From positions 13,813,816 through 13,877,815 of the forward strand of contig JARFYF010000051.1 of assembly GCA_030265395.1 (NCBI GenBank): a stretch of 64,000 bases of DNA, in the 5' to 3' direction. The position numbers were made by a program, and so were the translations under genes. Below are positions 48,980 through 53,693 of the stretch, piece after piece. The notes under the pieces are model-generated. The model was not told the DNA's origin, did no database searches, and was given only the letters and a program-made list of their open reading frames with translations. Each line of letters opens with the position of its first letter. The stretch's first letter is position 1. Source of the DNA: Rhina ancylostomus. Taxonomy: Eukaryota.

Positions 48980-49060
48980 CTGGCAGTAGTTGGCAAGTCT
49001 AGAACCACCGGATCCCTCTATCTCACCAGTGTGAGTTCTACCATTGCCAAAAATAGCCAG
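48980..49060 (-). ncRNA. MIR182: pre-miR-182
   Basis: Reverse complement of 49028-49051 is UUUGGCAAUGGUAGAACUCACACU (miR-182-5p). Reverse complement of 48987-49007 is UGGUUCUAGACUUGCCAACUA (3p). The arms pair, with lower stem ctggc/gccag. Confidence 0.98.
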
Positions 49061-49644
49061 AGACTCTGTCCTCCCATTATATCAAGACGAGTGTCCTCCT
49101 TCAATCAAGTGCCTGCACTACATTTCTGTGGTGAAAGAAATCCATGAAGTCAGCCAGCACCAGTCTCTATAGCAGACGGTTCAGAATTAGAAATAATGGA
49201 TAAAAAGGAGTGTGACAAGAAAATCAATACCACTGATGCAGCTCAGTTACCAGTGGGGAAAAGAAAGCAAGGTCACAAAACACACGGAATACCTCACCAA
49301 CATTAAACAGTCAAGCGACAGAGTGAGATCACAGATGTGCAGGCAACATGATCACCAGCACTGCAGAGAGCAGGGAAGATAATGGAGATAAAATATACAT
49401 TGAGAGAACTTATCACACCATTCCCTGCCCAAAATAATATTCTCCACAATTCCCCAATTGTTCACATCCTTCTACATTTTTCTACAGTCTTTTGAGGCCT
49501 ACTTTGGTGTCCTTTGATATTTACTTCTTGATTCACCTTATTTTCTCTCTTTCTTTCAGTGGTGTTCTACACCGTGGACGTTTCTCCCCAGGGCAATGCT
49601 GTGGCGGTTTCATTCTCTTCCTGGACTATGGTGGTCGCTGTGCT

Positions 49645-49730
49645 TCCTTTTCCTATATTGGCACTACACATAATTGCTCAAAGGCCATATACAAAAGCAA
49701 AAATGTGCTAGTGCCAAAATGGGCAAAGGA
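49645..49730 (-). ncRNA. MIR96: pre-miR-96
   Basis: Reverse complement of 49696-49718 is UUUGGCACUAGCACAUUUUUGCU (miR-96-5p). Reverse complement of 49655-49676 is CAAUUAUGUGUAGUGCCAAUAU (3p). Confidence 0.98.
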
Positions 49731-52700
49731 GAGATTCCTTTTATTCCTGCCATCCTAGTCCTTTTCCAAAGTGCCTTCATCAGTTATAACCCTCGTAAGA
49801 ACTTGGTTAACTTCTTCTTGGAATGGAGGAAGTGTATCATACAATTGGTTGTTCAAGTATACCCGGTAAACCTAAATCCAATGTTGTCCACAGGTCACAG
49901 GAAGATAGTTAAAAAACAAAATATTGCCCAAGTGGCTTGACGTGTTTGTTACTTGATAGAATTGCCAGCATTAAATAACTGATAATTACTCATCTATTTT
50001 CATAACTTCTGTGCTACCTTTTAGCATAGGGAAATTAAAAGCTTTCTGTTTCAGGGTTCTACTGTCATGTCTGACAAGGTAAAGTTCAAAGATCCTTTTC
50101 TGCCACAGCCTCAGTTTAAGACCAGTAACCCAATGGCAATTTCCATCTCAGCAGCCATCCTGGTAGGATCAGAGTCACTGTTCAGCCACTGGTACACTGA
50201 GGGTCCATGGGATATTTATAAATCGCCTCATGCAAGGTTATCATAGTCTGTAAAAGGAAGAAGGATTCCTTCCATTGGTCTAGGATTTTTATAGAAAAGG
50301 AGGAAAATATTTCATTTCACATTCCTACCTCTGTCTTTAAATCAACTGAAACTTGAACACGCAGCTTTCTAACTCAAGAGGGCTATTATTACGCCAAGAT
50401 CAACATCAGGCAGANNNNNNNCTTTGGTGGAAGGTCAGGGGCCTTCCAAATGAAAAGCTTTGGGGATGAAAATTGTCTGTGGTTATCAGTGAAAAACACC
50501 CATGAGAGTATTTATTGACAGTTGTACTCACAATACTTACCTCTGCACATTCAGTCCCATTAAAGCCAATGGAAACAAATTCAATGGCTGGCAATGTGAG
50601 CTTCACTGGTCACTGGGAATGCTTTTGCTTTGTTTAAGTTACTTGGAAATGCTAAATAACTAAATCAAATGGGGTCAACAGGGCTGTAGGACAATCATCA
50701 TGGATGGATTCAGCACTAGCAACCTAAGACAAATTTCTCCCCTCTGGTATTTTTTCCAGAAACTCCTACAGCAAAGGATCAGGAGAAGCTATTGAAAATA
50801 CAAAAAAAATATTTGTACTTTCAAAAACCTGTAGTTATCTTACGTCAAGCTCAGCAATCTATGTTTGGATATCTTCTAAATATGTGGTATTCTTGACCTG
50901 AGAGACCTTGGTCGATTCGCAGCAGACAATGGACTGAAGGGTCTCCCATGGAAGGGCTTTCAAAGGATTCAGATAAGCTCCGAGCTGCTCTGAAACTTAG
51001 GTTGCAGAGAAGTAATCCGAAGAGCAGATGCAATATGAAGCCAATCTGCTTCATCACTGGACTCAGTATCGCTCAGGCTCCTGCTGTGTTTCCTGCTGTG
51101 CCCTCATGGCAGAAAGCATCTGGATATTGTTAGATTGAATACTGGTGTGAAGGTTGCTCATGGCCTGCTGAAGTACTTGGTGACACATGTGTTGAAGGGT
51201 GTATCTGAATTGTATATCCAATGTGTCCTTTGGCTTATTGGTCCACCTGATTTTACATAGAGAGAGAGAAAATTTTGGAGAGGATCTATCTATAGGCAGA
51301 ATGCATTCTGTGCTTACTTGGCAGCACTGTACAGATGGTCCTGGTCTCTCTGAGGAATAGATTTTCTGACGTTGGCTCCACCTAACCAAGAAAACTATGT
51401 CTTCCTGCACCCGATCATTGTCTTTGAGAAAATTACTGTTTTAAGGTTGGATTCAATGGACCATAACACTTGTGTCTCAACTGAAGAGACAGGAAAATAA
51501 AAACATTAATACCTTTAGACCAAGAACAAACTAGCACTTCAAACAGATGATGATATGCTTCAAAGTAATTGGGTGTAATTCTTGCTGTTCATGTTCTAAA
51601 GAAGAGAGGTTATTTAAACATGAATTTACTAAATTAAAAGCAAGTTTCTTAAGGACATTGTTACCTCCCACTGGGAGCTCAGCAAGTAGGTAATTGAGCT
51701 CTATGGACTATGAACATCCACGTGTCAATCACCTGCCTCTGTGACATGCAGGGCAGTAGGAGAGCATGCCACAAGTGACTCACCATTCCTAGATCAGAGA
51801 AGAGAACCCTGCCCCCCTCCTTGGGTCCCTGGTTTCAATTACTATCCACTGATTCCTGTTAGAGCACAGCACGCGATCATGGTTCAAGCCCTCCCCCATG
51901 CCATGGTCAGACAGTCTAATGGAGCCATGTGCCGACCAATGATTTTGAAGGGCGGTTGGACAAACCACCAGTGAGCACCCGTGGGACTGATTTACCAGAA
52001 TAGTGAACACTTTAAGGAGTGGAGGAGAGGAGATATATAGGCAATATAGGCATGATATTGAAATGTTTTGTAAGGATTATTTTGTGTTAAAATCTGTGGA
52101 TAAAAAATTAACACCTATTGCTGCATTAATATTTCAGGTAAAGGACAATGATAAGCACCTCCTTTAAATCAATGGACAGAGGCTATCAGATGGATACATG
52201 AAGCACTTGGCTGTTATTATCACTAAATGTAACTTTGAGATATTTCCTCATTAGTTCTTACATGGGGGAGTTGTGCAGGGTAATGCTTTTCCAACAGAAA
52301 CACTTACCAGATGCTTCTGACTTGGGAAAGTTGTTTCCCTCGTTTGGTAGGTTGAGAAATTTGGTAATCATGGCGTTAGTGCAACCAGGTCTTGGCAGGG
52401 CTTTCTGTTGTTGCCTTCAGCTCTCCTTATTGGAACATGGACAGTTGTTCGTTGCAATTGACTTTCCAGTCCCTGGCTACGTGTACAACAATTCTGTGGG
52501 CATTTAGAAAACTTCTTGACTTTAGGTCTGGCCACACTCTGTGTCTTCTGGGTCCATCGAGCAATGTCTGTACTGAATACAGGTATCACTATTTTTGTTG
52601 GAGACGGGGGAGGGGTTGGGTGGGGTTGGCAGGGTTAGTGTCAGGGAGGAATTGTCTGACAAGACTAAACACCCTGCTTCTGAAAACAGTGACTGCTTTG

Positions 52701-53609
52701 TATTTTACTTTCCTTCTCTATTTCTTCTCAATGGACAGGCTCACATTTAGGAACAAAGCTCAAATACTTTGTTTCTGAAGAGAAAGATTAGAATTGGTTC
52801 TACCGTTAGCGATTGTGGCCAGGCAGTGAATGCATGTCTGATTTGGCAAAAACTGCTCAACACCCAACACTTCAGAACAATCCACTAACAGTAACATTTT
52901 AAAAAATTGCTCCAATTTCATGAACTTTTATATTGATGGTGCTTGAAAATCTCTCTGAGCATTGCTGCTAATTCAGAATCAGAGCCCACCTGTGGCATAT
53001 GCTTTGCGCACCCAATATGTGTGTAATCTTACAGAACAAAATGTTGTGAGAACAAGGATGTTCTGTTGCACAAGAGGACTAAAGGTGATAACAAGCATTC
53101 CAGTTAATGAGCACACACCCCATAACTCACTTAATTCATTCAGAGGCCTTCGATAACCTTTCTTCTGGGGACCATGGAATTAACATAGCCATATGCCCTC
53201 TTAATCAATGGGGCTTTATGCAGAAACATTGCAATGTTGTGTCAATAGTTCATGAGCAAATGAAAAAGGTTTCCTCATACAAACTTTTATGAAGGTGTCC
53301 CCTTTAAAGCAGAAAACTCCATGCAAAACCCATTCCAGTGCACCCTTTAATCTGTGCAGTACAATGCATGGCAGTAGATACAAGTCAGAGAAAGACTGTC
53401 GACAGGTAATCTTAAACAAATGCAGCTTCTCAATAAAATTCCATGAGGAAACCATAAACATCGCGAAGTTGATAGTATCTAGTTGTTTTGTATAGTCCAG
53501 GTGTGATCTGGTGCCGACGCAGGGTTTTTGCATATAGCAGGTGGGGTCTGAGTGTTGCACCTACAAAAGGCTGTTTTTCCAAAGTCGGCATTGTGGCATT
53601 TGGTTATTT

Positions 53610-53693
53610 CTCTGCTCTGTTTATGGCCCTATGGTAATTCACTGATTGTGTGTTGTCACAGTGAATTCTACCAGTGCCATACACAGAACAGGA
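53610..53693 (-). ncRNA. MIR183: pre-miR-183
   Basis: Reverse complement of 53660-53681 is UAUGGCACUGGUAGAAUUCACU (miR-183-5p). Reverse complement of 53621-53642 is GUGAAUUACCAUAGGGCCAUAA (3p). Lower stem ctctgt/acagaa. Confidence 0.98.

What the first reader, a model, noticed from the sequence alone, without database searches (positions are those of the whole stretch)
48980..53693. Intact miR-183/96/182 sensory cluster with reversed internal spacing
Seen: three full hairpins on the minus strand in the order 183, 96, 182, with canonical 5p sequences. miR-183 to miR-96 is ~3.9 kb and miR-96 to miR-182 is ~0.6 kb. Known: in human the cluster also converges on NRF1, but miR-183 and miR-96 are only a few hundred bp apart and miR-182 is ~4 kb away. 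The cluster is essential for hair cells and photoreceptors (MIR96 seed mutations cause DFNA50 deafness). Inference: synteny dates to the gnathostome ancestor, while hairpin proximity does not. Cluster-assisted Drosha processing and miRNA ratios may therefore differ, and expression in electroreceptors (ampullae of Lorenzini) is a natural prediction.
Basis: partly seen in the sequence, partly recalled or inferred. Interest (0 to 1): 0.7.

Follow-up and report, generated by a model that had tools for sequence, protein, structure and literature searches.

The report
Shark miR-183 cluster keeps ancestral spacing
This is the ordinary three-microRNA cluster for sensory cells in a shark or ray, and its "reversed" spacing is shared with other cartilaginous and jawless fishes, so it is likely the older layout and the tight human miR-183/miR-96 pair is likely the later change.

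Summary
[quoted passage not shown] The 7-N gap cannot explain the layout, because 3,193 gap-free bases follow mir-183. The spacing is not peculiar to this genome. Published coordinates give long-then-short in elephant shark, cloudy catshark, lamprey, hagfish and Ciona, and short-then-long in 9 of 9 bony vertebrates examined. Parsimony favours long-then-short as the vertebrate and gnathostome ancestral state, but only by one step, so the human layout is probably the derived one. One consequence is testable. In human cells miR-96 is reported to need the miR-183 hairpin 135 nt away, and such cluster assistance is lost beyond 2-3 kb. Here miR-183 is out of range, yet elephant shark makes miR-96. 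So shark miR-96 is likely cut largely unaided, with at most partial help from miR-182. miR-183 in ampullary organs is already reported. Verdict: known cluster, known coordinates, a modest evolutionary insight that my searches did not find in print.

The parts
53615..53688 (-). mir-183 hairpin (MirGeneDB Mir-96-P3); 5p arm starts at 53681
   Evidence: Rfam RF00663 97.3 bits; fold z -5.8; apical UGUG present, no CNNC at +16 to +18
49727..53614 (-). 3.9-kb spacer between mir-183 and mir-96; single-copy within the window; holds 4 donor-like and 1 acceptor-like splice motifs, near the background rate
   Evidence: no match to the rest of the window; no Pfam family at its curated cut-off in the 7 spacer ORFs scanned; crude splice scan; only short chance-level repeats
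50415..50421 (.). 7-N assembly gap inside the long spacer; cannot account for the spacing
   Evidence: 3,193 nt gap-free on the mir-183 side, 688 nt on the mir-96 side
49649..49726 (-). mir-96 hairpin (Mir-96-P1); 5p arm starts at 49718; lower stem pairs at 10 of positions -1 to -13
   Evidence: Rfam RF00669 94.6 bits; fold z -4.3; lower-stem ladder
49725..49741 (-). predicted local 6-bp hairpin that competes with the 5' strand of the mir-96 lower stem
   Evidence: MFE with 25-nt flanks; lower-stem pairing probability 0.44-0.91 at 37 C and 0.06-0.96 at 15 C depending on flank length, against 0.91-1.00 for mir-182; prediction only
49634..49637 (-). CNNC motif at +18 downstream of pre-mir-96, the only one of the three hairpins with CNNC in the +16 to +18 window
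   Evidence: the role of the motif (SRSF3 site) is recalled, not tested
49059..49648 (-). 0.6-kb spacer between mir-96 and mir-182, gap-free
48982..49058 (-). mir-182 hairpin (Mir-96-P2); 5p arm starts at 49051; most stable lower stem of the three
   Evidence: Rfam RF00702 96 bits
60401..63600 (.). CpG-undepleted region 6.7-9.9 kb upstream of mir-183; likely promoter region of the primary transcript (inferred)
   Evidence: CpG observed/expected 0.6-1.25 in most 200-nt bins against 0.08-0.31 in the 2-kb bins of 1-60000; human has upstream CpG islands (PMC4551935)
13844..14016 (+). NRF1 last coding exon with stop codon, 35 kb from mir-182, convergent
5572..5697 (+). upstream NRF1 coding exon
   Evidence: tblastn 88-100% identity with 4 of 5 named elasmobranch NRF1 proteins; boundaries read

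Best explanation
This is the intact elasmobranch miR-183/96/182 cluster beside NRF1, and its long-then-short spacing is shared with other cartilaginous and jawless fishes and is likely the ancestral vertebrate layout, in which miR-96 is likely cut by Drosha/DGCR8 largely on its own, with at most partial help from miR-182. Shown: three intact hairpins, their distances, NRF1 linkage, and the same layout in two other chondrichthyans, lamprey, hagfish and Ciona. Inferred: one polycistronic transcript starting near the CpG-rich region at 60-64 kb, run-through to mir-182, Microprocessor cutting of each hairpin, and repression of targets in sensory cells as in other vertebrates. Inferred: mir-183 at 3.9 kb is too far to act as the helper it is reported to be in human cells. 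Inferred: the 183-96 gap collapsed to under about 400 nt in bony vertebrates (once on the stem with a reversal in Xenopus, or twice), and only then could miR-96 come to lean on miR-183. The full 4-kb length may be a chondrichthyan stretch of an ancestrally shorter (1-2 kb) gap.
For: Spacing table (from; 183-96/96-182 in nt): window 3900/602, catshark 4538/669, elephant shark 4054/1242 (also 4004/1190 in the 2014 assembly), lamprey 2184/128, hagfish 8430/753, Ciona 933/415. Against these: gar 210/3097, zebrafish 94/865, medaka 178/206, Xenopus 1093/3704, chicken 53/1009, platypus 256/8145, opossum 350/7195, mouse 141/3477, human 164/4226. Parsimony needs 3 steps with long-short at the Olfactores, vertebrate and gnathostome nodes and 4 otherwise; 205 of 20,000 label shuffles do as well. 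The 183-96 gap is 400 nt or less in 8 of 9 bony vertebrates and over 800 nt in 12 of 13 other loci; a loose gap at the gnathostome node is preferred at all 4 thresholds tried. Human dependence: miR-96 falls to 15% when the miR-183 hairpin is deleted, and miR-182 at over 4,200 nt does not rescue it (PMC10558778). Range of assistance: best at 120-250 nt, partial at 900-1,200, lost at 2,000-3,072 (review PMC13686912). Elephant shark miR-96 was called by miRDeep and is enriched in gills, eye, uterus and ovary, and that paper's cluster table groups mir-96 with mir-182 only. The window's mir-96 has a lower stem reaching -12 and a CNNC at +18. miR-96 loci far from any neighbour exist: hagfish copy f is 13 kb from mir-183 with no mir-182 listed, and copy g has no neighbour listed. 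Zebrafish mir-183/182 double mutants had no hair-cell deficiency (PMC6635406).
Against: The polarity rests on a one-step margin. The deuterostome root is ambiguous: both echinoderms and Ptychodera are short-then-long. Coelacanth is absent from the table (0 hits), and no lungfish, bichir or sturgeon coordinates were obtained. Squared-change parsimony puts the gnathostome ancestor at about 1.4 and 0.9 kb, a weak asymmetry, so the 4-kb gap itself may be derived. The window's mir-96 lower stem is the most context-sensitive of the three. By eye it pairs no better than the mouse one printed in PMC4468907 (10 of 13 positions each, both with CNNC), so there is no structural sign of greater autonomy. 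The human dependence comes from one study in HEK293T cells. No expression or transcript data exist for this genome.
Confidence: 0.65

Rival explanations
1. Helper swap: miR-96 is a suboptimal hairpin in all vertebrates. It depends on miR-182 downstream in jawless and cartilaginous fishes and on miR-183 upstream in bony vertebrates, so selection always keeps one neighbour close.
For: In all 15 complete olfactorean clusters examined the nearest neighbour of mir-96 is within 1,242 nt, about the partial range of assistance. Lamprey mir-96 is 128 nt from mir-182. The window's mir-96 lower stem has a predicted competing fold. No other strong hairpin lies within 250 nt of mir-96.
Against: 602-1,242 nt is well beyond the 120-250 nt optimum. 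Hagfish copies f and g and lamprey copy o2 have no mir-182 listed and 13 kb, no neighbour and 1.5 kb to mir-183; sea urchin is 1.5 kb from its nearest neighbour. Zebrafish miR-96 alone maintains hair cells, although those neighbour alleles keep a basic hairpin and up to 24% expression.
Confidence: 0.25
2. The long 183-96 gap is a chondrichthyan expansion, paralleled in cyclostomes by large genomes, from a compact ancestor with no clear asymmetry. Spacing drifts neutrally and has no effect on processing.
For: The parsimony margin is one step. The ancestral estimate is about 1.4/0.9 kb at the gnathostome node against 2.8/0.9 kb at the chondrichthyan node. Spacing varies widely among species (PMC4551935), and the two hemichordates differ in direction.
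Against: The 183-96 gap stays at 3.9-4.5 kb in 3 of 3 chondrichthyans and at 350 nt or less in 8 of 9 bony vertebrates whose 96-182 gaps range from 0.2 to 8 kb, which looks like constraint. No repeat from the rest of the window lies in the spacer. Ciona, with a compact genome (recalled), is also long-then-short.
Confidence: 0.3
3. The genomic distance is not the RNA distance: splicing or long-range folding brings mir-183 next to mir-96, so the human-type help is kept.
For: Donor-like motifs at 52307, 51783, 51732 and 50540 and an acceptor-like motif at 51481 lie in the spacer. The mouse locus has exons between the miRNAs (PMC7401733). Catshark has a gene model spanning the cluster. Mfold is reported to bring the human hairpins together (PMC4551935).
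Against: The scan found no acceptor-like motif in the 1.7 kb upstream of mir-96, and motif counts are near background (about 1.4 donors and 0.9 acceptors expected). The scan is weak: it recovered 1 of 3 NRF1 control sites. No long complementary arms flank the spacer.
Confidence: 0.1
4. The spacing is an assembly artefact at the 7-N gap.
For: The assembly is gappy: 17 N runs in 64 kb.
Against: 3,193 gap-free bases follow mir-183. Two other chondrichthyan species show the same layout.
Confidence: 0.01

Closest known systems
Chondrichthyan MIR-96 family clusters in MirGeneDB (Cmi- and Sto-Mir-96-P3/P1/P2)
   Same: Same order, same strand for all three, same long-then-short layout (4054/1242 and 4538/669 nt against 3900/602 here).
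   Different: Only the exact distances differ; this is another elasmobranch genome.
Human and mouse miR-183/96/182 cluster
   Same: Identical 5p mature sequences by eye, same order, and upstream CpG-rich DNA. That the human cluster lies next to NRF1 is recalled and comes from no call.
   Different: Human is 164 then 4,226 nt. mir-183 is within assistance range of mir-96 in human and out of range here.
Cyclostome clusters (lamprey Pma o1, hagfish Ebu e)
   Same: mir-96 is closer to mir-182 than to mir-183 (2184/128 and 8430/753 nt).
   Different: Cyclostomes keep extra partial paralogous clusters; none was seen in this window.
Microprocessor cluster assistance (miR-144/451 type, ERH/SAFB dependent)
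   Same: Human miR-96 is reported as a recipient with miR-183 as helper (PMC10558778); this is the mechanism the spacing bears on.
   Different: Here the only possible helper in range is downstream and 0.6 kb away. Whether this mir-96 is a recipient at all is untested.

Membership tests
miR-183/96/182 cluster (MIR-96 family) | [quoted passage not shown] | tested here: met
   97.3, 94.6 and 96 bits against gathering scores 53, 65 and 71; full model length
miR-183/96/182 cluster (MIR-96 family) | Same strand, order 183-96-182, within about 10 kb | tested here: met
   span 4.7 kb on the minus strand
miR-183/96/182 cluster (MIR-96 family) | Intact 5p mature sequences and seeds | tested here: met
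   one search compared by eye with the human reference rows in PMC10558778 Table 1
miR-183/96/182 cluster (MIR-96 family) | Orthologous position next to NRF1 | tested here: met
   two NRF1 3' exons on the plus strand, stop codon 35 kb from mir-182
miR-183/96/182 cluster (MIR-96 family) | One polycistronic transcript, processed to mature miRNAs in sensory cells | not testable with these tools
   no RNA data for this genome; the elephant shark orthologues are read-supported and enriched in eye and gills
Cluster-assistance pair with miR-183 as helper of miR-96 (human type) | Helper within about 120-1,200 nt of the recipient | tested here: not met
   3,900 nt against loss of assistance at 2,000-3,072 nt
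Cluster-assistance pair with miR-182 as helper of miR-96 | Helper within range, with a stable full stem | tested here: met
   602 nt, partial range only; mir-182 lower-stem pairing 0.91-1.00
Cluster-assistance pair with miR-182 as helper of miR-96 | Recipient hairpin is structurally suboptimal | tested here: inconclusive
   the lower stem reaches -12 and CNNC is present, but there is no basal UG and a competing local fold depends on the flank length chosen
Cluster-assistance pair with miR-182 as helper of miR-96 | Recipient output falls when the helper is deleted or moved away | not testable with these tools
   needs a minigene or knockout

The most novel reading that the evidence does not exclude
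The deafness microRNA miR-96 swapped its processing helper at the origin of bony vertebrates: jawless and cartilaginous fishes use downstream miR-182, and bony vertebrates pulled miR-183 to within a few hundred bases and let miR-182 drift away. The cluster would then be a natural experiment showing that cluster assistance shapes miRNA cluster architecture over 450+ million years (age recalled) and resets the 183:96:182 ratios in hair cells, photoreceptors and electroreceptors.
Probability: 0.25. Interest if true: 0.6.

Novelty: new member of a known kind. Interest (0 to 1): 0.33.

Why it matters
The locus itself is ordinary, and the layout can already be read from public coordinate tables for two other chondrichthyans. 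The useful result is the change of polarity: the mammalian arrangement is likely the derived one, fixed in bony vertebrates. That matters for one open point. The reported dependence of human miR-96 (the DFNA50 gene) on its miR-183 neighbour cannot be an ancient fixed feature if sharks make miR-96 with miR-183 4 kb away. Shark, lamprey and Xenopus loci give ready-made constructs to test whether dependence evolved after proximity or whether the helper was swapped. My literature searches (open-licence PMC and bioRxiv only) showed no paper stating this polarity. The review PMC4551935 notes only that spacing varies and says it is shorter in lower organisms; I could not see its Figure 2C.

Tried and rejected
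Misassembly at the 7-N gap: rejected. A recent transposon insertion as the cause of the long spacer: no support, since the spacer matches none of the repeats elsewhere in the window and no spacer ORF reached a Pfam cut-off; no eukaryotic repeat library was available, so older or rarer repeats are unchecked. An extra or degenerate MIR-96-family helper hairpin near mir-96: none found. Long-range complementary arms or a simple intron removing the spacer: not found, with weak tools. AATAAA motifs just upstream of mir-183 (53751) and mir-96 (49745): 12 such hexamers occur in 10 kb, so treated as chance. Pfam and PDB did not recognise the NRF1 last exon; the protein search did. PMC10576077 gave 0 hits for the five terms tried. 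PMC4503353 and PMC7785829 had no usable locus data. PMC7401733 passages did not report miR-96 levels in miR-183 knockout mice. PMC6635406 section 7 does not state cross-effects between cluster members in its text. Gar coordinates were not in PMC8321539 and came from PMC11848845. Left out of the layout parsimony: amphioxus, hagfish f and g, and lamprey o2, which lack a linked mir-182. Not retrieved from that table: zebra finch, cow, dog, macaque, Florida amphioxus mir-96, three miRBase-derived deuterostomes and the protostomes; medaka cluster b was also not retrieved. No vertebrate genome collection was available, so spacer sequences could not be aligned between species.
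Full report
Observation. An Rfam scan of the whole window gives three matches at the gathering threshold: mir-183 at 53615-53688, mir-96 at 49649-49726 and mir-182 at 48982-49058. All are on the minus strand, full length, at 94.6-97.3 bits. The gaps are 3,888 and 590 nt between Rfam hairpins, or 3,900 and 602 nt between pre-miRNAs. 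The 5p arms begin at 53681, 49718 and 49051 and by eye equal the human reference sequences in PMC10558778 Table 1. The hairpins fold better than shuffles (z -5.8, -4.3, -2.4). A permissive scan of 44-64 kb adds no further family member.

Assembly. The window has 17 N runs, one of 7 N at 50415-50421. There are 3,193 gap-free bases between mir-183 and this gap and 688 between the gap and mir-96, so no error at the gap can produce a human-like spacing. mir-96 and mir-182 have no gap between them.

Context. A plus-strand exon at 13844-14016 encodes the NRF1 C-terminus. It is 100% identical to sawfish, horn shark and white shark NRF1, 93% to elephant shark and at most 86% to bony vertebrates among the 120 of 448 hits listed. 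A second NRF1 exon lies at about 5572-5697. The source is therefore an elasmobranch; I do not assign a species. The cluster is convergent on NRF1 at 35 kb. CpG is depleted through 1-60 kb but not at 60.4-63.6 kb, 6.7-9.9 kb upstream of mir-183. Human has CpG islands upstream of the cluster (PMC4551935, passages), so this is the likely promoter region; that step is inference.

Is the spacing unusual? No. The elephant shark genome paper (PMC3964593, supplement rows) lists the three loci with gaps of 4,004 and 1,190 nt. MirGeneDB-derived coordinates in PMC11848845 Dataset S1 (supplement rows), plus medaka from PMC8321539 (supplement rows), give the table computed (183-96/96-182, nt). Long-then-short: elephant shark 4054/1242, cloudy catshark 4538/669, this window 3900/602, lamprey 2184/128, hagfish 8430/753, Ciona 933/415, Saccoglossus 2226/358. 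Short-then-long: gar 210/3097, zebrafish 94/865, medaka 178/206 (measured between longer hairpins), Xenopus 1093/3704, chicken 53/1009, platypus 256/8145, opossum 350/7195, mouse 141/3477, human 164/4226, sea urchin 1504/3440, bat star 814/2471, Ptychodera 306/546. An older zebrafish table agrees (PMC2427041, supplement rows). So 6 of 6 complete clusters from tunicate, cyclostomes and chondrichthyans are long-then-short, and 9 of 9 from bony vertebrates are the reverse.

Polarity. On a standard species tree (topology from my own knowledge; 19 complete clusters; amphioxus, hagfish f and g and lamprey o2 left out for lacking a linked mir-182), parsimony needs 3 steps with long-then-short at the Olfactores, vertebrate and gnathostome nodes and 4 otherwise. 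The deuterostome root is a tie. 205 of 20,000 label shuffles reach 3 steps, which shows phylogenetic signal, not direction. Scoring only the 183-96 gap, it is 400 nt or less in 8 of 9 bony vertebrates and over 800 nt in 12 of 13 other loci. A loose gap at the gnathostome node is preferred at all four thresholds tried, by one or two steps. Whether tightening happened once or twice within bony vertebrates is a tie at 400-500 nt. Squared-change parsimony with equal branches gives about 1.8/0.6 kb for the vertebrate ancestor, 1.4/0.9 for gnathostomes, 2.8/0.9 for chondrichthyans and 0.6/1.4 for bony vertebrates. The tight 183-96 pair is thus likely the derived state, while the full 4 kb may be partly a chondrichthyan stretch. 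Coelacanth is absent from the table; lungfish, bichir and sturgeon were not checked. The Ptychodera cluster lies inside an nrf1 gene model on the same strand, which hints that the NRF1 linkage predates vertebrates, though gene models can be wrong. A search for miR-183, NRF1 and synteny found 0 papers.

Mechanism. PMC10558778 (passages and section 12) reports that deleting the miR-183 hairpin in HEK293T cells cuts miR-96 to 15% and abolishes Drosha binding to it, while miR-182 at over 4,200 nt is unaffected and cannot help. The review PMC13686912 (passages) gives the range of cluster assistance as optimal at 120-250 nt, partial at 900-1,200 nt and lost at 2,000-3,072 nt. In this window mir-183 is out of that range and mir-182 is in the partial range. 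Elephant shark, with the same layout, has miRDeep calls for all three. All three are enriched in gills and eye, miR-96 also in uterus and ovary, and the paper's cluster table joins only mir-96 and mir-182. So chondrichthyans make miR-96 without a nearby miR-183.

Autonomy or helper swap? For autonomy: the window's mir-96 lower stem pairs at 10 of positions -1 to -13 and it alone has CNNC in the +16 to +18 window. Hagfish keeps mir-96 copies 13 kb from mir-183 or with no neighbour listed. Zebrafish mir-183/182 double mutants show no hair-cell defect (PMC6635406, passages and section 7), although those alleles retain a basic hairpin and up to 24% expression. For a swap: every complete olfactorean cluster has a neighbour within 1,242 nt of mir-96. 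The mir-96 lower stem has a predicted competing fold at 49725-49741, and its pairing probability swings with flank length while that of mir-182 stays at 0.91-1.00. By eye the mouse lower stem printed in PMC4468907 (passages) pairs just as well, 10 of 13, and also has CNNC, so the shark hairpin is not visibly more autonomous. I favour largely unaided cutting with at most partial help from miR-182, and give the strict swap 0.25. A crude splice scan found four donor-like and one acceptor-like motif in the spacer, near background, and none that would join mir-183 to mir-96; the scan recovered only 1 of 3 NRF1 control sites. No long complementary arms flank the spacer.

Electroreceptors. [quoted passage not shown] Expression in ampullae of Lorenzini is likely but is not a new idea and does not depend on the spacing.

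Literature seen. Passages only: PMC4551935, PMC4503353, PMC7401733, PMC4468907, PMC5650464, PMC7785829, PMC13686912; PMC10576077 returned no passage. Passages plus one section: PMC10558778, PMC6635406. Supplement rows (with main-text passages for the first two): PMC3964593, PMC11848845, PMC2427041, PMC8321539. Other papers were seen as search listings only. None of the listings stated the chondrichthyan layout or its polarity. Figures (including PMC4551935 Fig. 2C on spacing), bioRxiv supplements and subscription papers could not be seen and may bear on that.

Verdict. A real, intact, ordinary orthologue of a well-known cluster. The 'reversed' spacing is the chondrichthyan norm and likely ancestral. 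What remains of interest is a cheap test of whether miR-96's dependence on miR-183 evolved after proximity or replaced a dependence on miR-182. Interest 0.33.

Noticed in passing
window 60401-63600: CpG-undepleted island of modest GC content upstream of mir-183, interrupted by a 100-N gap at 61309-61408; likely promoter of the primary transcript.
   Followed up: partly
window 40531-41610, 18685-19290, 56120-56757: Decayed LINE-like retrotransposon fragments that match each other at 64-73%; 41338-41610 gives a weak RVT_1 match, E 8.6e-5, below the curated cut-off. The CR1-type label is recalled.
   Followed up: partly
window 24373-24530, 26404-26487, 26947-27021, 47153-47201, 54958-55148: Short palindromic dispersed repeat family, MITE-like; family name not determined.
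   Followed up: no
window 54372-54695 and 558-852: Pair of roughly 320-nt SINE-like repeats at 67% identity; one copy is 0.7 kb upstream of mir-183.
   Followed up: no
window 5572-5697: NRF1 exon matched by 4 of the 5 named elasmobranch proteins tried, but not by the 469-aa sawfish isoform X9, so it may be alternatively spliced.
   Followed up: partly
window 51481 to 50540, minus strand: Strong acceptor-like and donor-like motifs that could define a roughly 0.9-kb non-coding exon between mir-183 and mir-96; counts are near background.
   Followed up: partly
PMC11848845 Dataset S1, Ptychodera flava scaffold6664 rows: The hemichordate 183/96/182 cluster lies within an nrf1 gene model near its 3' end, same strand, hinting at a deuterostome-age NRF1 linkage with changed orientation.
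   Followed up: no
PMC11848845 Dataset S1, Xenopus tropicalis rows: Xenopus is the one bony vertebrate examined with a loose 183-96 gap (1,093 nt) and a distant mir-182 (3,704 nt), a tractable test of miR-96 autonomy.
   Followed up: no
PMC10558778 section 12 versus window 49635-49740: The 27-bp stem given as the reason human miR-96 is suboptimal comes from the miRBase hairpin. With flanks included, the shark and mouse (by eye) lower stems extend to about -12 or -13, so stem length alone may not explain the dependence.
   Followed up: partly
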